A DNA stretch of 64,000 nt from an uncultured Prevotellaceae bacterium (GTDB lineage Bacteria; Bacteroidota; Bacteroidia; Bacteroidales; Muribaculaceae). The stretch spans positions 2,227 through 66,226 of the forward strand of contig CAMVAP010000012.1 of NCBI GenBank assembly GCA_947165485.1. Reading direction: 5' to 3'. Under the pieces are notes generated by a model. It was not told where the DNA came from. It made no database searches and saw nothing but the letters and a program-made list of their open reading frames with translations. The translations under genes and the position numbers were made by a program. Shown one piece after another: positions 7,453 through 52,129 of this stretch; positions within the stretch are counted from its first letter, which is position 1, and every line of letters begins with the position of its first letter.

Positions 7453-9246
7453 TTAATACCGGATGTCCTGGACAGGCATCAGGCACAGGATGTGGTCACG
7501 CCTCAAGATGCGCTGCATCTCCTGGTGCCACTCATAGAGCGGTCCCAGCTCTTCCTTGAGACGGGCCTCATAGCTGGTATTCATGTACTTCTCCAACAAG
7601 GCCTCAAAACGGTCCTTGACTTCAGGATAGTTCTGGGTCTCATAGTCGTCGCCCATCTTCAGCTTCTTGGCCACCCAGGCGGTAGCCTCCTTGATGCCTC
7701 CAAACTCGTCCACAAGACCAATCTGCTTGGCCGTCACGGCGTCCCACACGCGACCCTCGGCAATCTTCTTGATGGAGTCTTGGCTCATGTGGCGGCCATC
7801 GGCACAACGCTTGGTGAACAACTCATAACCCTCGTTGACCATCTTCTGCAATGCGGCCAGCTGGACGGGAGTGAGTTTGGAGCCCATAGCCCCCATGTCG
7901 CTGTTCTCGTTGGTCTTGACCGATGCCATGTGGATACCTATCTTGTTCTCCACGAGTTGGTTAAAAGAAGGAATCATGCCAAAGATGCCGATCGATCCTG
8001 TGATCGTGGTGCGCTCGGCAAAGATGCGGTCGGCGTTACAGGAGATATAGTAACCACCCGAGGCGGCATAGTCGCCCATCGACACGGCAACAGGCTTGCC
8101 GGCAGCCTTGAAGTCCTGTACGGCCTTCCAGATCTGTTCGCTGGCAAAGGCGCTACCGCCAGGCGAGTTCACCCTGAGCACCATGCCCTTGACGTTGTCG
8201 TCATCCTTGAGACGCAGGATCGTCTTGGACAACTCCTGGCCGTTGATCTCGGTGTTGCCATCGCCGGTAGTGCTGCTGATTTCGCCCACTGCATAGACGA
8301 TTGCGATGTGCTCGCCCATGGCGATATTGTCGAGCGATGATACCAGATCGCCGGGAGTCACATAATTCAGTTCCTCATCTTTCTTGACCTGGGTGCGGGC
8401 TTTCAGTATGTTGTCCATCTCATTGCTGTACACCAGCTTGTCCACCAGCTTGCTCTTGAGCAGGTCCTGGGTGTTGAAACAGAATACCACACTGTCGCAC
8501 AAGGAGTTTAACGCATCCGACGTCATCTTGCGGTCGGCAGCGATGCTGTCGCGCATCTCTTTCCAGATGGCTCCCAGGTAGTGCTCGGTCTGCAAGCGGT
8601 TGGCCTCGCTCATGTCTTCGAGCATGTAAGGCTCAACTGCGCTCTTGAATGTGCCCACGCGCACCACTTGCATCTCCACTCCGATCTTGTCGAGCGCTTT
8701 CTTGAAATAGGGGATGACCGAGCCCATGCCGTGCAGGTCAACCGACCCCACCGGGTTGAGGTAAATGCTGTCGGCAACGCTGGCCAGGTAATAGTCGGCC
8801 TGGTTAATGCCCTCGTAGCCGTAGGCTGCAATCCACTTTCCGCTCTTCTTGAACTTCTTGAGCGCGCTGCGTAGTTTCTCTAGTGTGGCAGGAGCGGCAC
8901 TAACGCCATTGCACTCGATGTAGATGCCGTCCACCTTGTCGTTCTGGGCAGCATTGTCGATGGCTGCTACCAGCGTGTTCAAGCCCGTGGATGAGGGCAG
9001 ACCTTCATTTTGCAGCAATGACATCATATCAATAGGTTCAGAATTGTCGCGCTCACTGATGTTCATCCCCAAGTCGAGCTTGAGGATTGAGTGCTTGCTC
9101 ACGCTCACATTGCTCTTGCTGCCTCCCATTGCCATTGACCCCATGATGCCAAAACTCATGATGATGCCAACAATCATGAAAATCAGGAATGCCAGAAACG
9201 CCCCCACAAAGGAGCCGCACACGATAAGCAGAAATTTCTTCATCAT
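7453..9246 (-). CDS. sppA: Signal peptide peptidase SppA (67-kDa type)
   Basis: N-terminal TM segment, RVGTFKSAVEP, RVNSPGGSAFAS, SMGDYAASGGYYI, TITGSIGIFG and GRVW motifs. Confidence 0.96.
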   Translation of the reverse strand: MMKKFLLIVCGSFVGAFLAFLIFMIVGIIMSFGIMGSMAMGGSKSNVSVSKHSILKLDLGMNISERDNSEPIDMMSLLQNEGLPSSTGLNTLVAAIDNAAQNDKVDGIYIECNGVSAAPATLEKLRSALKKFKKSGKWIAAYGYEGINQADYYLASVADSIYLNPVGSVDLHGMGSVIPYFKKALDKIGVEMQVVRVGTFKSAVEPYMLEDMSEANRLQTEHYLGAIWKEMRDSIAADRKMTSDALNSLCDSVVFCFNTQDLLKSKLVDKLVYSNEMDNILKARTQVKKDEELNYVTPGDLVSSLDNIAMGEHIAIVYAVGEISSTTGDGNTEINGQELSKTILRLKDDDNVKGMVLRVNSPGGSAFASEQIWKAVQDFKAAGKPVAVSMGDYAASGGYYISCNADRIFAERTTITGSIGIFGMIPSFNQLVENKIGIHMASVKTNENSDMGAMGSKLTPVQLAALQKMVNEGYELFTKRCADGRHMSQDSIKKIAEGRVWDAVTAKQIGLVDEFGGIKEATAWVAKKLKMGDDYETQNYPEVKDRFEALLEKYMNTSYEARLKEELGPLYEWHQEMQRILRRDHILCLMPVQDIRY

Positions 9247-9404
9247 AATAATATATTATTAGAGATGTTAATAATCTTGAATAAGTTATTTAAAATCAAA
9301 CCATTGCGGCACCTGTGCCGTCTGTTGCCATCGCATTGCAGTGGTCTAAAATACAAAGGTAACGCATTTTCCCGACAAATAAGCAATTTCAAGCCCAAAT
9401 ATTT

Positions 9405-9498
9405 TGGTTTTTCAGTTTTCAGTCATTAGAATTTAGAATGCGGATGCCACTAACAACTAACAACTAACAACTAACAACTAACAACTAACAACTAACAA
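9405..9498 (+). repeat. Heptamer-array element copy 1: degenerate TTTTCAG/TTTAGAA units, TGCGGATGCCA core, then (CTAACAA)7
   Basis: Core at 9439-9449; seven perfect CTAACAA units at 9450-9498. Confidence 0.9.
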
Positions 9499-10343
9499 CT
9501 CCTAACCCCATAATGTCGGGCCGCCCACAGGGCAATGGCTAGCGAGGCGATGAGGCTGGCGACGGCAAGCCACGGAAAAGCGCCAGGGGAGGGGAGACCC
9601 AGCGTGTCGCCATATCCCTCGGGAATGTAGCCCCTGCCAGTGAGAAATGACATCACCACGACGGTGGTATTGTTGAGCGTGTGGGCAATGATGGGAGCCC
9701 ACAGGCTGCGGGTCCACACCAGCAGGTAGCCCAGCCATAGCCCCAGCATCATGCGAGGGATGAAACCATAGAACTGCATGTGGATTGCGCTGAAGATAAT
9801 AGCGGTGATCCACACGGCAGCGTGGGTGCCCAGGCGGCTATCCTGCATGGTGCGTTGCATCGCACCGCGAAATAGGGTCTCCTCGCTCAATCCAGCCAGG
9901 AACCCCACAACCAGTGTGCACGCAATCAGCATCCCGACGCTCTTGAAATCCAGCAAGCGGGCAGTGGTCTCGGCTGCCGCTTCCTCCGATCGCTGCATCG
10001 CTTGCTCGATACCGCTCATCCAGGCTGGTAGCGACATGGATTTGTTGAGCTCCACCAGCCAGTTCATGGCAGGGAGTGAAATGATGTAGAACAAGATGAC
10101 GAGGACAATCGCTGTCCATCCTGGCGCTCGGTCCAAGCACATGACGTGCACGGGCCGTTTATAAAATATGGCCATTGCCACCACGGCAGGCACGATAAAA
10201 ACCATGATGTCCTGTATCGTGAGCATGACAAGCAGCTCCTTGCTGGCAAGCAGCACGCTCACAATCGCCCCCAATCCCATGAGACATAACAGGATGAGTA
10301 ACCGTGTACTCAGTTTACAATTGATTTTCCTTTCCATTATCAT
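9492..10343 (-). CDS. CPBP/Abi (CAAX protease-like) intramembrane metalloprotease
   Basis: EETLFRG, FSAIH and HTLNN motifs with multiple TM segments. The TAG stop is supplied by a CTA in the heptamer array. Confidence 0.93.
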   Translation of the reverse strand: MIMERKINCKLSTRLLILLCLMGLGAIVSVLLASKELLVMLTIQDIMVFIVPAVVAMAIFYKRPVHVMCLDRAPGWTAIVLVILFYIISLPAMNWLVELNKSMSLPAWMSGIEQAMQRSEEAAAETTARLLDFKSVGMLIACTLVVGFLAGLSEETLFRGAMQRTMQDSRLGTHAAVWITAIIFSAIHMQFYGFIPRMMLGLWLGYLLVWTRSLWAPIIAHTLNNTTVVVMSFLTGRGYIPEGYGDTLGLPSPGAFPWLAVASLIASLAIALWAARHYGVRSC

Positions 10344-10357
10344 TTTTCATTTTTTTG

Positions 10358-10520
10358 TTTCTAGTTTCTAGTCCCTAGTTGCTGGTTGGCATCCGCAAAC
10401 GCCTAACGCCTAAAACCTAAAACCTAAAGCCTAAAGCCTAAAACCTAAAACCTAAAACCTAACGCCTAAAGCCTAAAGCCTAAACCAAACGCCTAAAACC
10501 TAAAGCCTAAACCAAACGCC
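10358..10520 (-). repeat. Heptamer-array element copy 2 (inverted orientation)
   Basis: Plus strand: TTTCTAG TTTCTAG TCCCTAG units, GTTGGCATCCGCAAA core (10385-10399), then 12 contiguous (G/A)CCTAA(A/C) units (10401-10484) and 3 more interrupted by CCAAAC. Confidence 0.92.
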
Positions 10521-10619
10521 TTTTCGGTTTTTTTGATTTTTTTTATCGCAAAATTAAACATTTTTTCAACAAGCGTGTCTAAATGACAAAACAATAATCA
10601 TTTTAATCCCTATAGAACT

Positions 10620-11225
10620 ATGAAGAATATCCTTATAGCAATCACGGTGGCGCTGGTCGCATCCTTGAACGCTGCGGCTCAGACCAATCCCGAAATCGAT
10701 ATAGAAACCAATGAGGTTGAGTTACAGGTGATTAATCCCGCTGAGCCCGTCAAGGAAACCAAGCAGGAAATAAAAGAACGCGAGAAAAAGTTGCGCGAAC
10801 TCAACGATGATGTGGCCTTTGCCAAGGCTGCCAATTCCCTGCGCCGCGGTTACTTTGTTCTGCTGGCCGAGAACATCCAGATCGGACGCAACTCCTACCG
10901 CCACTATGGCATCAACGAGCAGTCCAACTTCATTCTTGTCCAGAACACCGATGGCATTATCCAGTTTGCCCTGAACACGGGATCGCCTGGCATCAATGGT
11001 CTGGGAGGCTGGACCGGAAAGGGAGAAGTCAGGGATAAACGCATCACCTATGCCGACAATGGCGACGTGTTCATGCAGTTTAACGTGGTCAGCTCCAAGG
11101 TCAATGCCCAGGTGTACATCACCCTCTTCCACAACAGCAATTATGCCATTGCCGAGATCACAGGAGGAACCAATATCACCATGCGAGGCAAGATCCAGCC
11201 TTACCGCGACAAGAACCACCGTTAA
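10620..11225 (+). CDS. DUF4251-like exported protein
   Basis: Signal peptide; FVLLAENI..GR...NEQSNFI and Q.ALNTGSPGINGLGGWTGKG match the DUF4251 pattern as recalled. Confidence 0.75.
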   Translation: MKNILIAITVALVASLNAAAQTNPEIDIETNEVELQVINPAEPVKETKQEIKEREKKLRELNDDVAFAKAANSLRRGYFVLLAENIQIGRNSYRHYGINEQSNFILVQNTDGIIQFALNTGSPGINGLGGWTGKGEVRDKRITYADNGDVFMQFNVVSSKVNAQVYITLFHNSNYAIAEITGGTNITMRGKIQPYRDKNHR

Positions 11226-11227
11226 GG

Positions 11228-11409
11228 CTTTTTAGGCCTTTTAGGTTTTAGGCTTTAGGTTTTAGGCTTTAGGTGTTTGCGGATGCCAACTAGGGACTAG
11301 AAACTAACAACTAGAAACTAACAACTAACAACTAGAAACTAACAACTAGAAACTAATAACTAATAACTAATAACTAATAACTAATAACTAATAACTAACA
11401 ACTAACAAC
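11228..11409 (+). repeat. Heptamer-array element copy 3
   Basis: About 6 (T/C)TTTAGG units, TTTGCGGATGCCAAC core (11276-11290), then 17 contiguous TAGGGAC/TAGAAAC/TAACAAC/TAATAAC units (11291-11409). Confidence 0.92.
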
Positions 11410-11485
11410 TCTTATAAACGTACTATTATATTATTAATAGATTGATGCCGGTAATAGATGGTAGCTCATGATGAGCATGTAGTCC

Positions 11486-11535
11486 GCACCCCGCAATTTC
11501 GGTAGGAAAATGAAGCGGGGTGCAATTTTTTTTTG
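11486..11535 (+). terminator. Terminator-like hairpin upstream of the secreted-protein gene
   Basis: GCACCCCGC (11486-11494) / GCGGGGTGC (11515-11523) followed by a long T run. Confidence 0.5.
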
Positions 11536-11713
11536 TTTTTTTTCTTTATTGTATTAAAGAAATGAAGTATTTTTGCCACTTGACTTGGAGTTTGTAGCTT
11601 TGTGGGGGCGTTATGCGAAACCCTGTACACACCTTATACATGCCGACTCAACAAGTTTCGATCAACTGGACTGTGTTTATTTTCTTAATAATAATTTTTT
11701 AAAATTCAAGTGT

Positions 11714-13303
11714 ATGAAGAAGATTTTTACTCTTGTGGCAATGGCCATATTTGCCTTTGGCACAATGATGGCAGGTTGGCAACCTAGTGACACCGAGGCA
11801 ACACGCCTCGACAAGGAAGGAGCCGAAGGGCAAGTGCAGATGAAGACCATCCACACCGATGATGGAAAAATCATCCTCAGCTGGTTGCGACCCGAGCGTG
11901 TTAACGAAGTGTTCTCCTACACCTTGCACTTGCAACTGTTTGATGCTGCTGGCAATCCCCAGTTTGGTGATGAGGGCATTGTGGTGTGTGACAAGGCCAC
12001 CAGATCATGGACAACCGACTATTCGTTGGCGATGGCCGACAATGGGGACATCCTTCTGGCTTACAACGATTCCCGCAATGATGCTGGCGATGGCGAGGTG
12101 ACCGAGGTGTACCTCTATCGTTACAACCAGCAGGGTGAGCCCGTGTGGGATCCCGACGGTATCTTGTTCTCCTCTTGGATGCTCGATCAAGAGGCTTATA
12201 TGGCCGAGGACGTCGCTCCGCAAATCTGTGTTAGTGGCGAGAACATCTATGTAGCTGTATCTCATGTCGAGTATCCCAACTACACGACCCACTGGGAGGT
12301 GATCCGCGTCAATGATGACGGCACCGTAGCTCCCACGATGCCCACCGCCATCGCTTGCAGAATGCTTGTCACCCGTCCTGCTCCCGATGGTTCACTGTAT
12401 TGCGTCTATGAGAATGCCAACCTCGGCTTTGACGCGATGAGGCTGGACGAGGACCTTGTTGGCATGTGGGACGAGCCCATCACTATCGAGGAAAGGGTGA
12501 TCTCCAACGGTCGTTATGTGCCCACCCCTATCGCACAAACCGATGACGAGGGTGGCTTGTTCCTCTCCTATAGGGTGCTGGAAAGCTTCACTGGATATCA
12601 GGTGCTCAATTACCTGACCCCAGAGGGCGCATTCCTTGCCGAGGCGCCTAGCTGCAATGGCAGCATCGATGGCGATGCGGGTACCGCAGCCATTGGCGTC
12701 AAGGATGATATGGCATTTGTGGCATGGGAATACGACTTTGGCAACTTCTTCATGAATGTCAACGTGTTAGATGCTGCTGGTGGTTACTGCTGGCCCGACG
12801 AGTCGGCTCTGGGTCGCTCGCTGGACGAGAATGACATGTGGGGCTTCACTCCCGTCAAGGTCATCCCGCAGGAGAATGGATGGGTTCTCCTCTATGGCAA
12901 CAGCACGAGCTGGAATGGTGCCAAGTTTATGGTTGTTAAGCTCGATGAACTCGGCGTAGAGGTGTGGAGAAAGCAGATTGGCGAGGACGAATTCAAGTCA
13001 AGCGGCTTCTCGGTTGCTTATGATGAGAAATATGCCTACATCTTCTTCACCCAGGAAGAGCAGTATGACGACAACTGGAATGTGATTCCCGGTTCGAGCG
13101 GCATGTTTGTGATGTGTGTTGACATTGCTGGTGACGAGCCCACGCCTTCGTCGTCGGTTCAGGATGTCGTTGCTGGACAGCCCGTTTCGGTCGAGGTATT
13201 CACCCTCGATGGCAAGCGTGTCAATGAGATGGAGAGCGGTGTTTATATCGTTCGCTCCACCGATGCCAACGGCAACATCACCACTCGCAAGGTGCGCAAG
13301 TAA
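11714..13303 (+). CDS. Secreted protein with repeated beta-propeller-like blades and a T9SS type-A-like C-terminal domain
   Basis: Signal peptide MKKIFTLVAM...; recurring D..G...W blades; C-terminus VFTLDGKRVNEMESGVYIVR...TRKVRK. ATG at 11714. Confidence 0.75.
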   Translation: MKKIFTLVAMAIFAFGTMMAGWQPSDTEATRLDKEGAEGQVQMKTIHTDDGKIILSWLRPERVNEVFSYTLHLQLFDAAGNPQFGDEGIVVCDKATRSWTTDYSLAMADNGDILLAYNDSRNDAGDGEVTEVYLYRYNQQGEPVWDPDGILFSSWMLDQEAYMAEDVAPQICVSGENIYVAVSHVEYPNYTTHWEVIRVNDDGTVAPTMPTAIACRMLVTRPAPDGSLYCVYENANLGFDAMRLDEDLVGMWDEPITIEERVISNGRYVPTPIAQTDDEGGLFLSYRVLESFTGYQVLNYLTPEGAFLAEAPSCNGSIDGDAGTAAIGVKDDMAFVAWEYDFGNFFMNVNVLDAAGGYCWPDESALGRSLDENDMWGFTPVKVIPQENGWVLLYGNSTSWNGAKFMVVKLDELGVEVWRKQIGEDEFKSSGFSVAYDEKYAYIFFTQEEQYDDNWNVIPGSSGMFVMCVDIAGDEPTPSSSVQDVVAGQPVSVEVFTLDGKRVNEMESGVYIVRSTDANGNITTRKVRK

Positions 13304-21585: not shown

Positions 21586-21616
21586 AGTAGCATTTCCCTT
21601 CAATATCTCTAAAAAA

Positions 21617-21679
21617 GCCTAAACCCTAAACCCTAAAACCTAAAGCCTAAAACCTAAAACCTAAAACCTAACGCCTAAA
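21617..21679. repeat. Heptamer array, 9 x (G/C/A)CCTAA(A/C)
   Basis: Nine contiguous units; the uvrB TAG stop (21675-21677) lies in the last unit. Confidence 0.92.
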
Positions 21680-23753
21680 TCCTCTCCTTCACCATCTCCT
21701 CCAGTTTCAGGATCTCGTCGCGATACTGTGCGGCTTCGAGGAAGTCCATACGCTTGGCGGCTTCAATCATCTGGGTCTTGAGACGGTCGATGGCGGCCTG
21801 CATGTCCTTGCCACTCATGTAGGCGACTACAGGATCGGCAGCAACGCCAGCGCTGCTGTCAAACTCATCGGTATAGCGCATGTGGGTTGCCGGTGTGCCA
21901 GCCGATGGCATCGCACCTTGATTGTGGCGACTGGGTGTCGTCGGGTGACGCATGTCGGTGTCTTGGCCGATGATAGCCGTTCTTGCCTTGATGATGGCGG
22001 TGGGAGTGATACCATGCTCCTCGTTATACTTGAGTTGTAACGTGCGGCGGCGCTCGGTCTCGTCGATGGTTTGGCGCATCGAGTCGGTGATGTTGTCGGC
22101 ATACATGATGACCGTGCCGTTCAGGTTGCGGGCGGCACGGCCTGCCGTCTGCGTCAACGAGCGGCGGCTGCGCAGGAAACCTTCCTTGTTAGCATCCAGG
22201 ATGGCAACCAGCGACACCTCGGGCAAGTCAAGGCCCTCGCGCAGCAGGTTCACACCCACGAGCACATCAATAGCACCGGCACGCAGGTTATCGATGATCT
22301 CGATGCGTTCCATCGTCTCTACATCGCTGTGCATATAGGCGGTGCGGATGTCCAGCTTCTTGAGGTAGTCGCTCAACTCCTCGGCCATGCGCTTGGTCAG
22401 GGTGGTAACGAGGGTGCGCTCACCGCGCTCGATGCGCAGCTGTATCTCTTCAACCAGGTCATCGACCTGACCCTGGGAGGGACGTACAATAATTTGCGGG
22501 TCAAGCAGGCCCGTCGGGCGGATGAGCTGCTCGGTGATGATGCCTTCGCTCTTGTTCAGCTCGTAGTCGGCTGGCGTGGCGCTCACATAGATGGTCTGAT
22601 GGGTCAACTGCTCAAATTCCTCAAACCTCAACGGCCTGTTATCCAGCGCTGCCTCCAGGCGGAAGCCATAGTGCACCAGGTTGGTCTTGCGCGACTGGTC
22701 GCCGCCATACATGGCGCGTATCTGGGGCACGGTCACGTGGCTCTCGTCGATGATGGTCAGGAAGTCGTCGGGGAAATAGTCCAGCAGGCAGAAAGGCCTC
22801 ATGCCTGGCCTGCGGCCATCAAAGTAGCGGCTATAATTCTCAATGCCAGAACAGTAGCCCACCTCACGCATCATCTCCATGTCGTAGGTCACGCGCTCGT
22901 TCAGACGCTTGGCCTCGGCAAAGCGGTTCTCGCGGGCAAAGGCGGCCACCTGGTTCTCGCGGTCCAGGTCAATCTGTCCCATGGCGGCTTTCATGCGCTC
23001 CTTGGTGGTAACAAAGATGTTGGCCGGGAAAATCTTGAAGCCCTCGACGTCCTCGGTGGGCATCTGTGTCTCGCTGTCGAGCACCTGGATGCGTTCAATC
23101 TCGTTGCCCCAAAAGATGACCCGCAGCATGATGTCCTCATCGCTCAGGAACACGTCAACCGTGTCGCCCTTGACGCGGAAAGTGCCCATCCTCAGTTCGG
23201 TGTCGCTGCGGGAGTACAGGGCATCCACCAGGCGGCGCAACAGGTCGTCACGACCTATCTGGTCTCCCACTTTCAGCTCAATGGCATTGGCGGTGATATC
23301 CTCGGGGTTGCCCATACCATACAGGCACGACACGCTCGACACCACCACGATGTCGCGGCGACCGCTCAGCAGGGCCGTCACGGTCGAGAGCCTCAACCGC
23401 TCAATCTCGTCGTTGATGGCGAGGTCTTTCTCGATATACTTGTCGGTCGAGGGAATATAAGCCTCAGGCTGATAGTAGTCATAGTAGGACACAAAGTAAT
23501 GCACCGCGTTCTCGGGGAAAAAACTCTTGAACTCGGCATACAGCTGTGCCGCCAGCGTCTTGTTGTGCGACAAGACCAGGGTGGGGCGCCCAGTGCGGGC
23601 TATTACATTGGCCATCGTGAACGTCTTGCCCGATCCCGTCACGCCCAGCAGCGTCTGGTATGGCACACCGTCGTTCACGCCGCCAGCCAACTCGGCAATC
23701 GCCTGCGGCTGGTCCCCCGTCGGCTCATATTCACTATGCAGTCTATATTCCAT
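21675..23753 (-). CDS. uvrB: Excinuclease ABC subunit B
   Basis: PTGDQP, LGVTGSGKT, FVSYYDYYQPEAY, DESH, GVNLLREGLDLPEV, GRAARN and C-terminal UVR domain. ATG at 23753. Confidence 0.98.
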   Translation of the reverse strand: MEYRLHSEYEPTGDQPQAIAELAGGVNDGVPYQTLLGVTGSGKTFTMANVIARTGRPTLVLSHNKTLAAQLYAEFKSFFPENAVHYFVSYYDYYQPEAYIPSTDKYIEKDLAINDEIERLRLSTVTALLSGRRDIVVVSSVSCLYGMGNPEDITANAIELKVGDQIGRDDLLRRLVDALYSRSDTELRMGTFRVKGDTVDVFLSDEDIMLRVIFWGNEIERIQVLDSETQMPTEDVEGFKIFPANIFVTTKERMKAAMGQIDLDRENQVAAFARENRFAEAKRLNERVTYDMEMMREVGYCSGIENYSRYFDGRRPGMRPFCLLDYFPDDFLTIIDESHVTVPQIRAMYGGDQSRKTNLVHYGFRLEAALDNRPLRFEEFEQLTHQTIYVSATPADYELNKSEGIITEQLIRPTGLLDPQIIVRPSQGQVDDLVEEIQLRIERGERTLVTTLTKRMAEELSDYLKKLDIRTAYMHSDVETMERIEIIDNLRAGAIDVLVGVNLLREGLDLPEVSLVAILDANKEGFLRSRRSLTQTAGRAARNLNGTVIMYADNITDSMRQTIDETERRRTLQLKYNEEHGITPTAIIKARTAIIGQDTDMRHPTTPSRHNQGAMPSAGTPATHMRYTDEFDSSAGVAADPVVAYMSGKDMQAAIDRLKTQMIEAAKRMDFLEAAQYRDEILKLEEMVKERI

Positions 23754-30762: not shown

Positions 30763-30804
30763 CCTAAAGCCTAAAGCCTAAAGCCTAAAGCCTAGAGCCT
30801 AGAG
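30763..30804. repeat. Heptamer array (CCTAAAG)4(CCTAGAG)2
   Basis: Six contiguous units ending 2 bp from the gcvT stop codon. Confidence 0.9.
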
Positions 30805-30806
30805 CC

Positions 30807-31904
30807 TTACTTCTTATAATTAGGGGTATAGAAGCGTTTCTTCACCACGGTGGCGGGGAACACTTTCTTGCGGATGCGAACATTCAGCGTGTTGCCCAGG
30901 GCGCCAACGGCACGGTCAACCAGTGCAAATGCTACGCTCTTGTCCAGCGAGATGCTGTGATAACCAGTGGTGATGTAACCCACGACGTTCTCGCCGTCGA
31001 GCACCTCATAGCCATGGCGGGGAATAGCCTTGCCTTCAAGCTCCAGACCCACGAGCTTCTTGGGGGTGCCTTCGGCCTTCTGCTGGGCGCAGGCATCGCG
31101 ACCAATGAAACCACCTTCCTTGTCGAGCTTCACAAACATGCCAAAGGTAGCTGCAATGGGCGAAATCTCAGGGGTCAACTCGTCGCCATACAGGGGCAGA
31201 CCAGCCTCAAAACGCAGGGTGTCGCGGCAACCCAGTCCACAAGCCTGTACGCCAGCCTCCATGAGCTTGTCCCACATCTTGCAGATGATAGCGGGATCGG
31301 CATAAACCTCAAAACCGTCCTCACCAGTGTAACCGGTACGGCTCACGATGATGGTCTTGCCGTCATATTCCATCTTCTTGAATGTGTAGAATGTTAAGTC
31401 GGTGGTGTCGATGCCCAGCACAGCGCCCATGGTCTTCTCGGCCTCGGGACCCTGAACGGCAATCTGACCGTACTGCTCGCTCTGGTGGTCAACTTTCACG
31501 TCGAAGTTCTTGGCATGTTCCATGATCCATGCTACATCCTTATCGATGTTGGCAGCGTTGATCACGAGGAAGTAGTCGTTATCGTCAACACGATAAACCA
31601 GCAGGTCATCAACGGTTCCACCGTCGGGGTACAGCATCATGCCGTACAGGATCTGACCAGCCTTAATTGCATTGATGTCGTTGGTGAAAATGTAGTTGGT
31701 GAACTTGGCGGCGTCGGGGCCAGTGATTTCCACCTCACCCATGTGAGACACGTCAAAGACTCCCACCTTGTGGCGAACTGCATTGTGTTCGGTAGTGATA
31801 TCTACATACTGGATGGGCATGTCATAACCTGCAAAGGGGGACATGAGAGCGCCTTGCGCCACGTGCCTGTCATGCAGACAGGTAACTTTGATTTCTTCAG
31901 TCAC
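30807..31904 (-). CDS. gcvT: Glycine cleavage system T protein (aminomethyltransferase)
   Basis: FAGYDMP, FDVSHMGE, SRTGYTGEDGFE and GLGCRDTLRFEAGLPLYG; GTG start. Confidence 0.97.
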   Translation of the reverse strand: MTEEIKVTCLHDRHVAQGALMSPFAGYDMPIQYVDITTEHNAVRHKVGVFDVSHMGEVEITGPDAAKFTNYIFTNDINAIKAGQILYGMMLYPDGGTVDDLLVYRVDDNDYFLVINAANIDKDVAWIMEHAKNFDVKVDHQSEQYGQIAVQGPEAEKTMGAVLGIDTTDLTFYTFKKMEYDGKTIIVSRTGYTGEDGFEVYADPAIICKMWDKLMEAGVQACGLGCRDTLRFEAGLPLYGDELTPEISPIAATFGMFVKLDKEGGFIGRDACAQQKAEGTPKKLVGLELEGKAIPRHGYEVLDGENVVGYITTGYHSISLDKSVAFALVDRAVGALGNTLNVRIRKKVFPATVVKKRFYTPNYKK

Positions 31905-52064: not shown

Positions 52065-52080
52065 AGTAAAACCCTATAAA

Positions 52081-52129
52081 CCTAACCCCTAAAGCCTAAA
52101 GCCTAAAACCTAAAGCCTAAAACCTAAAA
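52081..52129. repeat. Heptamer array, 7 x CCTAA(A/C)(A/G/C)
   Basis: Seven contiguous units abutting the lolA TGA stop at 52130-52132. Confidence 0.9.

What the first reader, a model, noticed from the sequence alone, without database searches (positions are those of the whole stretch)
9405..11409. Composite heptamer-array element with a conserved TGCGGATGCCA core; two copies bracket a DUF4251 gene as inverted repeats
Seen: three copies share the architecture (TTTAGG-type heptamers)n - core - (CTAG/CTAA-type heptamers)n. Copy 1 has its core at 9439-9449 (+). Copy 2 (10385-10399, -) and copy 3 (11276-11290, +) share an exact 15-bp core, TTTGCGGATGCCAAC, and the downstream segment AACTAGGGACTAGAAACTA. 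Copies 2 and 3 are inverted around the DUF4251 gene, and copies 1 and 2 are inverted around the CPBP gene. Ordinary slippage microsatellites have no fixed core separating two different unit types. Inference: this is a dispersed, REP/BIME-like or cassette-boundary element that may mark gene capture, inversion or insertion events, or a protein-binding site.
Basis: partly seen in the sequence, partly recalled or inferred. Interest (0 to 1): 0.7.

Follow-up and report, generated by a model that had tools for sequence, protein, structure and literature searches.

The report
Hub-and-heptamer intergenic repeat family
The three copies belong to a repeat family found only in one genus of rumen Muribaculaceae, in which a 10-base hub sits between two fast-changing runs of 7-base units that fill the gaps between genes; it is a new variant of a known, still unexplained kind of bacterial repeat and does not mark gene capture.

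Summary
All three copies lie at the stated coordinates. The hub GCGGATGCCA is dispersed: about 61 array-flanked copies (36 exact) in this 3.0-Mb genome. The junction GCGGATGCCAACTA occurs in 39 of 133 species of the genus and only at chance level in 400 other Bacteroidales.

Layout: stop codon, T-rich TTAG-type heptamers, hub, A-rich G-poor CTAA/CTAG-type heptamers, start codon. Arrays are 89% intergenic and strongly oriented with transcription.

The flanked genes (sppA, CPBP, DUF4251) are syntenic in 20 genus relatives, none of which has the hub at these three sites. CPBP and DUF4251 are divergent in all 35 related loci. So no gene capture or inversion is seen at this locus.

A conspecific contig carries copy 3 with the same hub and outer edges but different unit numbers and order. 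At two orthologous sites only the 10-nt hub is present or absent, and the arms remain.

No Rfam match, no significant fold, no promoter box, no link to the RAYT/IS200 genes.

Best reading: a non-autonomous mosaic repeat, transcribed within mRNAs, changed by slippage and spread by recombination between arrays. The A-rich arm doubles as the Shine-Dalgarno-less leader.

This scan has noted similar hub-and-heptamer mosaics in other Bacteroidales genomes. Verdict: new variant of a known kind; moderate interest.

The parts
7453..9246 (-). sppA (peptidase S49) gene, conserved neighbour
   Evidence: Pfam PF01343, E 2.9e-73. Syntenic in genus relatives.
9407..9500 (+). Copy 1 (class II junction, GAAT-hub-CTAACAA). 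Degenerate T-type units at 9407-9439, hub at 9440-9449, seven ACTAACA units at 9449-9500. The array supplies the CPBP stop codon (9492-9494).
   Evidence: Absent at this site in 20 relatives. In the sense of the flanking minus-strand genes, the T-rich arm follows the CPBP stop.
9492..10343 (-). CPBP/Rce1-like intramembrane protease gene
   Evidence: Pfam PF02517, E 1.5e-20. Orthologues at the same place in 20 relatives.
10357..10521 (-). Copy 2 (class I). On the minus strand: L arm (TTTAGGY units) 10521-10400, hub 10399-10385, R arm (ACTAGRR units) 10384-10357. It ends 13 nt before the CPBP ATG and lies inside the inferred CPBP 5' UTR.
   Evidence: The CPBP/DUF4251 spacer is 276 bp here, against 85-101 bp in 13 of 20 relatives and 127-255 bp in the other 7, which hold other sequence and no hub. 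The conserved promoter region is retained outside the element.
10549..10556 (-). Bacteroidota-type -7 promoter box (TAATTTTG) inferred for CPBP, conserved in relatives
   Evidence: Read from the aligned spacers. The consensus TAnnTTTG is from established knowledge of Bacteroides promoters. The inference is not tested.
10620..11225 (+). DUF4251 gene
   Evidence: Pfam PF14059, E 3.5e-10. Always divergent from CPBP in 35 related loci.
11225..11410 (+). Copy 3 (class I). L arm 11225-11275 starts at the DUF4251 stop codon, hub 11276-11290, R arm 11288-11410.
   Evidence: A conspecific contig, L025, has the same hub and outer edges but different unit number and order. The closest species, G007, has a hub-less mini L+R at this site.
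11411..11547 (+). Conserved 3' region of DUF4251 (CCGGTAATAGATGG motif, small hairpin, GC-rich terminator hairpin with T run). Not part of the repeat; it marks the repeat's outer edge.
   Evidence: Alignment of 26 related loci and alifold.
21614..21683 (-). Hub-less L-type array (CCTAAAR on +, that is TTTAGG-type on the minus strand)
30763..30807 (-). Hub-less L-type array starting at the stop codon of a minus-strand gene
52067..52129 (-). Hub-less L-type array filling the spacer between two minus-strand genes

Best explanation
The three copies are members of a genus-restricted, non-autonomous mosaic repeat family. Each element is an ordered spacer module: T-rich TTAG-type heptamers next to the upstream stop codon, a 10-nt hub (GCGGATGCCA, in one of two fixed junction forms), then A-rich, G-poor CTAA/CTAG-type heptamers running up to the downstream start codon.

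Shown: the layout, the orientation with transcription, the lineage-specific gain at conserved spacers, the rapid change in unit number and order, and gain or loss of the hub alone.

Inferred: the module is transcribed as part of the mRNA (5' UTR, 3' UTR or intercistronic). The arrays change by replication slippage and unequal exchange. The hub with adjacent units spreads between spacers by homology-driven recombination or gene conversion, using the arrays as flanking homology, not by a dedicated transposase. The A-rich arm is tolerated or favoured because it provides the unstructured, adenine-rich leader that Shine-Dalgarno-less Bacteroidota use for translation initiation. Heptamers carrying stop codons cannot extend reading frames.
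For: Dispersal:
- 62 exact hubs.
- 36, 17 and 8 array-flanked hubs with 0, 1 and 2 mismatches.
- The 14-mer junction occurs in 39/133 species of the genus with zero reversed-pattern control hits. It occurs in 7/400 other Bacteroidales genomes as singletons, similar to the control.

Layout:
- Sense L arrays start a median 0 nt after the stop (46/57 within 10 nt).
- Sense R arrays end a median 6.5 nt before the start (69/104 within 10 nt).
- G is 1-10% at -15..-1.

Orientation between co-directional genes:
- ACTAR-type arrays 93:14.
- TTAGG-type arrays 57:17.
- Class I composites 15:2.

The same stop-L-hub-R-ATG layout is seen in G129, G013, G115 and G118.

Gain at conserved spacers: none of 20 relatives has the hub at the three sites, and the promoter and terminator flanks are retained.

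Turnover: conspecific L025 differs in unit order on both arms, with over 99% identical flanks.

Hub-only presence or absence with arms kept: window copy 3 against G007, and G007 L127 against G000 C7.

Copying between loci: identical tracts up to 59 bp span the hub. Copies are clustered, with 16 pairs within 5 kb against 2.6 expected.

No promoter box: TAnnTTTG occurs 0 times in 3.2 kb of composites against 7.3 expected.

Adenines upstream of starts promote initiation in Bacteroidota (PMC6847099).
Against:
- Exact conservation of a 10-14-nt hub across 39 species whose genes are only about 70-85% identical is more than passive hitchhiking easily explains. It hints at a function or an active copying mechanism.
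- At one orthologous site the hub is kept in both G000 and G007.
- The orientation bias could come from an insertion mechanism coupled to transcription or replication, not from selection.
- Gene calls are my own ORF/Markov caller, so start-codon distances are approximate.
Confidence: 0.55

Rival explanations
1. The composite is a functional RNA-level device inside operons. The T-rich arm pairs, partly through G-U pairs, with the A-rich leader arm, and the hub forms the apical loop. The pairing masks the downstream initiation region until the upstream ribosome or a hub-binding protein opens it (translational coupling or insulation), or it forms an RNase processing or stabilising hairpin as REP/BIME elements do in E. 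coli mRNAs.
For: - Strong sense orientation, and placement exactly between stop and start.
- Arm types co-vary as inverted complements: TCAG with CTGA, TTAGT with ACTAA, TTAGG with CCTAA.
- Perfect inverted arms around the hub in G007, G115, G125 and G044.
- ACTAGGG units can pair with CTTTAGG at 6 of 7 positions, using two G-U pairs (read from the sequence).
- The hub is conserved across 39 species.
Against: - Folds of copies 2 and 3 are no better than shuffles: z = -1.0 and -1.2 in sense.
- In G129 the L and R units pair at only 4 of 7 positions (read from the sequence).
- The hub occurs in both orientations relative to transcription, as classes I and II.
- Hub copies decay at about 4-5% per site.
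- Hub-less L-R junctions exist.
Confidence: 0.2
2. The hub is the recognition or cleavage site of a dedicated enzyme that actively copies the element, such as a RAYT-like Y1 transposase or another HUH or tyrosine recombinase. On this view it is a true REP/REPIN- or MITE-type mobile element.
For: - Patchy species distribution with very different copy numbers, 0 to 38.
- Clustering and long identical tracts between loci.
- Inverted hub pairs forming hairpins exist elsewhere in the genome.
- Y1_Tnp genes are present in all five high-copy genomes tested.
Against: - Y1_Tnp genes also occur in hub-free genomes G077 and G005.
- In G000 they are flanked by their own GC-rich hairpins or GTAG-type REPs, with 5-8 copies, not near hubs.
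- The elements have no terminal inverted repeats, no target duplications and no fixed ends.
- A 10-nt unit alone is gained or lost.
Confidence: 0.1
3. The elements are cassette boundaries or recombination sites (integron-attC-like) that capture, invert or shuffle the genes they bracket.
For: - Several genes are bracketed by two hubs.
- In G063 and G066 a small gene is bracketed by two direct composites, where G000 has one composite and G007 none.
- Dispersed repeats can always serve as substrates for homologous recombination.
Against: - At the locus in question the bracketed genes are conserved and keep their orientation relative to each other in all relatives.
- The 6.9-kb island next to a composite on C10 has its own ~30-bp terminal inverted repeats.
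- No recombinase was found adjacent.
- Bracketed genes include conserved housekeeping-type genes.
Confidence: 0.07
4. Ordinary local microsatellite slippage, with the shared core a coincidence.
For: Heptamer repeats are the commonest long simple repeats in prokaryotes and are attributed to slippage (Mrazek 2007, as summarised in PMC4679880).
Against: - The same hub sits at about 61 array junctions.
- The exact 14-mer occurs in 39 species with no control hits.
- Identical 40-59-bp tracts are shared between loci.
Confidence: 0.02

Closest known systems
Small dispersed repeats (SDR) embedded in tandem heptamer arrays of Nostoc punctiforme (Elhai et al. 2008, Genome Res 18:1484; reference listed in PMC3116915; the paper itself was not held, so content is from my own knowledge)
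   Same: A very short dispersed unit sits inside heptamer arrays. Filled and empty sites are seen. No transposase, terminal repeats or target duplication. Confined to one coherent clade.
   Different: - The hub here is 10-15 nt, against 21-27 nt.
- It has no supported hairpin of its own.
- It always sits at the switch between two different arm types (T-rich then A-rich).
- It is tied to stop and start codons.
- The phylum is Bacteroidota, not Cyanobacteria.
TAACTGA-type heptamer direct repeats upstream of start codons in Beggiatoaceae, Cyanobacteria and a few Bacteroidetes (MacGregor 2015, PMC4679880)
   Same: A-rich CTGA/CTAA-containing heptamers in forward orientation lie within a few nucleotides of start codons, in genomes with few Shine-Dalgarno sites. 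Relatives have shorter spacers without the repeats.
   Different: Here the start-proximal array is only one arm of a composite with a hub and a second, stop-proximal T-rich arm. The units are ACTAACA, ACTAGAA and ACTAGGG. The family is genus-specific.
Long simple sequence repeats with heptanucleotide units (Mrazek et al. 2007) and cyanobacterial STRR heptamers
   Same: Period 7 dominates (401 TRF rows). The arrays are intergenic and hypervariable.
   Different: A fixed hub, an ordered pairing of arm types, strict placement relative to genes, and exact sharing of tracts between loci.
BIME / REP mosaics of enterobacteria and REPIN-RAYT systems (PMC3116915)
   Same: Dispersed extragenic mosaics of a few modules in fixed order, often inside operons and transcribed. 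The hub also occurs as inverted pairs forming hairpins.
   Different: There is no palindromic unit with a GTAG-type head, no REPIN doublets and no cognate RAYT next to the repeats. Most of each element is made of tandem heptamers.

Membership tests
REP / REPIN-RAYT | The repeat unit is an imperfect palindrome (hairpin) with a conserved 5' tetranucleotide such as GTAG | tested here: not met
   The hub is not a palindrome. The folds of copies 2 and 3 are not better than shuffles. Only a 2-bp GC/GGAT/GC mini-stem is possible.
REP / REPIN-RAYT | A RAYT (Y1 transposase) gene is flanked by the same repeats and co-distributed with them | tested here: not met
   The Y1_Tnp genes of G000 carry other flanks, GC hairpins or GTAG REPs, and these are not near hubs. 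Y1_Tnp is also present in hub-free G077 and G005.
BIME-like mosaic | Dispersed extragenic elements are built from a small set of modules in a fixed order | tested here: met
   The order T-arm, hub, A-arm holds in 38-42 of 43 composites. There are two fixed junction classes. The hub is also combined with 23-nt repeats and hairpins.
SDR-in-heptamer-array type (Elhai 2008) | A short dispersed unit is embedded in tandem heptamers, with filled and empty orthologous sites | tested here: met
   61 array-flanked hubs. Hub-only presence or absence at two orthologous sites, with the arms kept.
SDR-in-heptamer-array type (Elhai 2008) | The unit is 21-27 nt with a secondary structure supported by compensatory changes | tested here: not met
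   The conserved part is 10-15 nt. No structure is supported.
TAACTGA-type start-proximal heptamer repeats | Forward-oriented heptamer arrays lie within a few nucleotides upstream of start codons | tested here: met
   R arrays: 93 sense against 14 antisense. The median gap to the start is 6.5 nt.
Integron-like cassette boundary (attC) | Flanked genes are mobile cassettes that vary between relatives, with an integrase nearby | tested here: not met
   CPBP and DUF4251 are conserved and keep their relative orientation in 20 genomes and 35 loci. No recombinase lies in the neighbourhood.
Known RNA family (Rfam) | Match to a curated covariance model | tested here: not met
   No match at E<=1 in 9000-12000.

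The most novel reading that the evidence does not exclude
The 10-nt hub is an active signal and not a passenger. It could be a recognition site for a lineage-specific protein or RNA that nucleates or maintains the two heptamer arrays and controls the junction between upstream and downstream cistrons, for example by processing, coupling or pausing. If so, the composite would be a dedicated operon-punctuation system for Shine-Dalgarno-less Bacteroidota, and the hub one of the smallest units known to be copied between loci.
Probability: 0.12. Interest if true: 0.75.

Novelty: new variant of a known kind. Interest (0 to 1): 0.4.

Why it matters
Heptamer arrays are a long-known but unexplained feature of many bacterial genomes. 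This family gives an unusually clean rule set:
- a stop-proximal T-rich arm, a conserved hub, and a start-proximal A-rich G-poor arm;
- orientation with transcription;
- hypervariability between strains.

These rules make concrete hypotheses testable: tuning of the translation leader in Shine-Dalgarno-less Bacteroidota, and recombination-driven spread of a 10-nt unit. In practice the elements break short-read assemblies, can mislead gene-end calling because the arrays supply stop codons, and could serve as strain-typing loci for rumen Muribaculaceae.

Tried and rejected
- Rfam scan of 9000-12000 at E<=1: nothing.
- RNA folds of copies 2 and 3 on both strands: z = -1.0, 0.0, -1.2 and +2.9, so no significant structure.
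- Hub as integrase attB or island end: the 26-kb stretch between two hub sites on C15 holds ordinary genes, not an element.
- Hub derived from a tRNA end: none of 38 tRNAs carries it.
- RAYT/IS200 link: rejected.
- Promoter in the element: no TAnnTTTG box. The sigma-70 and terminator scan was uninformative.
- The Elhai 2008 paper could not be read.
- Inversion of 10400-11276: not seen in 35 related loci.
Full report
**Observation**

- TGCGGATGCCA at 9439-9449 (+);
- the 15-mer TTTGCGGATGCCAAC at 10385-10399 (-) and 11276-11290 (+).

Tandem Repeats Finder reports period-7 arrays on both sides of each core. Pfam confirms the neighbours: sppA (7453-9246, -), a CPBP/Rce1-like gene (9492-10343, -) and a DUF4251 gene (10620-11225, +). 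Three further hub-less arrays of the same unit type lie at 21614, 30763 and 52067.

**Organism and distribution**

The window is contig C12 of a 3.03-Mb, 100-contig, 52.6% GC assembly. Record titles of relatives name ruminant-gut MAGs labelled Muribaculaceae, Sodaliphilus sp. or uncultured Prevotellaceae. Sheep-rumen runs hold the region.

- The 10-mer hub occurs 62 times in the genome.
- The 9-mer is 83 intergenic against 51 genic, although only 18% of the genome is intergenic by my own gene calls.
- Array-flanked hubs number 36, 17 and 8 with 0, 1 and 2 mismatches. That is the profile of a repeat family with some decay.
- The junction GCGGATGCCAACTA is present in 39 of 133 species of the genus, with 1 to 38 copies and no hits of the reversed control.
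- In 400 other Bacteroidales genomes it appears only as singletons in 7 genomes, like the control.
- The 80 viral-contig matches examined, of at least 118, are chance hits without arrays.

**Anatomy**

All 43 composites with an exact 9-mer hub share one order: a T-rich arm (TTAGG, TTAGT or TCAGT types), the hub, then an A-rich arm (ACTAA, ACTAG, CCTAA or ACTGA types).

The hub has two junction forms:
- Class I: xTTT-GCGGATGCCA-ACTAR.
- Class II: GAAT-GCGGATGCC-N-CTRA, which on the other strand reads TGGCATCCGC-ATTC followed by an A-type arm.

Copies 2 and 3 of the window are class I. Copy 1 is class II.

Because the T-arm-then-A-arm order reads the same on both strands, the hub's polarity is meaningful only relative to the specific arm types. 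The hub also occurs outside arrays. It forms inverted pairs that make terminator-like hairpins, and it sits beside 23-nt tandem repeats. The family is therefore a mosaic of modules.

**Relation to genes**

I used my own ORF/Markov gene caller, which gave 1959 genes and 82% coding. Of 304 period-7 arrays, 271 are intergenic and 5 genic.

Orientation between co-directional genes:

| Array type | Sense | Antisense |
|---|---|---|
| ACTAR-type arrays | 93 | 14 |
| TTAGG-type arrays | 57 | 17 |
| Class I composites | 15 | 2 |

(binomial p from 2e-15 to 2e-3).

- Sense L arrays begin a median 0 nt after the upstream stop codon.
- Sense R arrays end a median 6.5 nt before the downstream start codon.
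- G is almost absent from -15 to -1.
- No fixed register to the ATG is seen.
- The same stop-L-hub-R-ATG layout is seen in four other species.
- No composite contains the Bacteroidota -7 promoter box (0 found against 7.3 expected).

At the window locus:
- Copy 2 lies between the conserved -7 box of CPBP and its ATG. The inferred 5' UTR grows from about 20 nt to about 200 nt.
- Copy 3 lies between the DUF4251 stop and a conserved 3' element with a terminator.
- Copy 1 overlaps the CPBP stop codon.

**Evolution**

sppA, CPBP and DUF4251 are syntenic in the 20 genus relatives fetched. None of these has the hub at any of the three sites. The CPBP/DUF4251 spacer is 276 bp here. It is 85-101 bp in 13 of the 20 relatives; the other 7 have 127-255 bp of other sequence, in G060 a different heptamer array, and no hub. 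The promoter region is retained in G000 next to the insert.

Other species carry other heptamer arrays at the same spots (G044, G045, G060, G061). The closest species, G007, has a hub-less pair of L and R units after the DUF4251 stop.

CPBP and DUF4251 are divergent in 35 of 35 related loci. G011 and G022 have the pair on the other side of sppA, but without arrays at the break.

A conspecific metagenome contig with over 99% identical flanks has copy 3 with the same hub and the same outer edges. It has more L units, a different junction and a different order of R units.

At two orthologous sites only the 10-nt hub differs, and the arms stay:
- G000 has it and G007 lacks it (copy 3);
- G007 has it and G000 lacks it (C7:28.8 kb).

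At a third site both species keep the hub while the arrays differ.

Different loci in G000 share identical tracts of up to 59 bp across the hub. Composites are clustered, with 16 pairs within 5 kb against 2.6 expected.

**Mechanism**

These facts fit a non-autonomous repeat that sits inside transcripts. Its arrays change by slippage and unequal exchange. Its hub and neighbouring units move between spacers by recombination between the homologous arrays. This explains several features:
- the lack of ends, target duplications and a linked transposase;
- the hub-only indels;
- the shared tracts and the local clustering.

The strong sense bias, and the placement of A-rich G-poor units at start codons, agree with what is known about translation initiation in Bacteroidota. 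There, adenines at -3, -6, -12 and -13 and low structure promote initiation (PMC6847099). They also agree with the proposal made for TAACTGA repeats (PMC4679880). Transcription, recombination and any effect on translation are inferred, not shown.

**Alternatives**

- *RNA hairpin or coupling device.* This is attractive because the arms are partly complementary and some copies have perfect inverted arms. However, the folds are not better than shuffles, arm complementarity is poor in G129, and the hub occurs in both orientations.
- *RAYT-driven REP system.* Not supported.
- *Cassette capture.* Not supported at this locus. Still, in G063 and G066 a small gene is bracketed by two direct composites where G000 has one. 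Recombination between copies may therefore occasionally add or remove genes.

The conservation of the exact hub across 39 species remains the least well explained fact. It keeps a functional or actively copied hub possible; I put this at about 0.12 for the strong form.

**Comparison and verdict**

The closest known things are:
- small dispersed repeats inside heptamer arrays of Nostoc (Elhai 2008, from my own knowledge; the paper was not held);
- TAACTGA start-proximal repeats;
- heptamer LSSR/STRR;
- BIME mosaics.

This scan has already reported comparable hub-and-heptamer mosaics in other uncultured Bacteroidales.

The present family adds a very short hub conserved across the genus, a strict two-arm order tied to stop and start codons, and hub-only indels. 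I rate it a new variant of a known kind, with interest 0.4.

Noticed in passing
window 11411-11547: A conserved non-coding block follows the DUF4251 stop in about 25 related loci. It has an invariant CCGGUAAUAGAUGRU motif, a small hairpin whose stem sequence differs between relatives while staying complementary (by eye, not counted), then a GC-rich terminator hairpin with a U run. There is no Rfam match. It could be a 3'-UTR element or a small RNA.
   Followed up: partly
G000 C10:12700-19340 (L134:1200-7840): A 6.9-kb four-gene segment with ~30-bp terminal inverted repeats (GGCGGYTTCCATTTTTTCCATTTTTCCAC type). It is absent at this site in G007, G115, G063 and G066, and present elsewhere in G066 (C5) and G129 (C22). 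It looks like a mobile island inserted beside a composite.
   Followed up: partly
L137:3760-4600 and L138:1073-1895: In G066 and G063, a small gene (identity not tested) is bracketed by two direct composites with a variant hub (GGGCGGATGCTCT in G063; more diverged forms in G066). G000 has one composite and G007 only a 35-bp spacer at this site.
   Followed up: no
G000 C32:15061-15396 (L021): A Y1 transposase gene is flanked by GTAG-plus-hairpin REP-like repeats (5-8 copies in the genome). This is a separate candidate RAYT/REP system. Three near-identical IS200-like copies lie on C3, C16 and C81.
   Followed up: partly
G000 C29:10950-11130 and C15:39650-39790: Tandem repeats of about 23 nt (TTTTTCAAACAACATTTACAACG type) lie between two hubs, followed by a conserved AACGCTGATTGCGCGGGTTAC segment found at four loci. 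This is another module of the mosaic.
   Followed up: no
G000 C13:32119-32910: A 790-bp insert with about 50-bp repeats holding a GCCCGCTTGCGGGC hairpin at each end. It lies where G007 and G115 have a palindromic composite instead.
   Followed up: no
L002 (G011) and L003 (G022): The CPBP-DUF4251 pair lies on the opposite side of sppA compared with the other 18 relatives. No arrays are seen at the breakpoints.
   Followed up: partly
G000 C14:33638-33667; C1:27970-28005; C15:4385-4420: Inverted hub pairs (GGCATCCGC, loop, GCGGATGCC) form strong hairpins. The C14 copy has T and A runs on either side, like a bidirectional terminator.
   Followed up: no
L025:1-20 and window 10494-10521: The conspecific metagenome contig ends inside the L arm of copy 2. 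These arrays break short-read assemblies.
   Followed up: no
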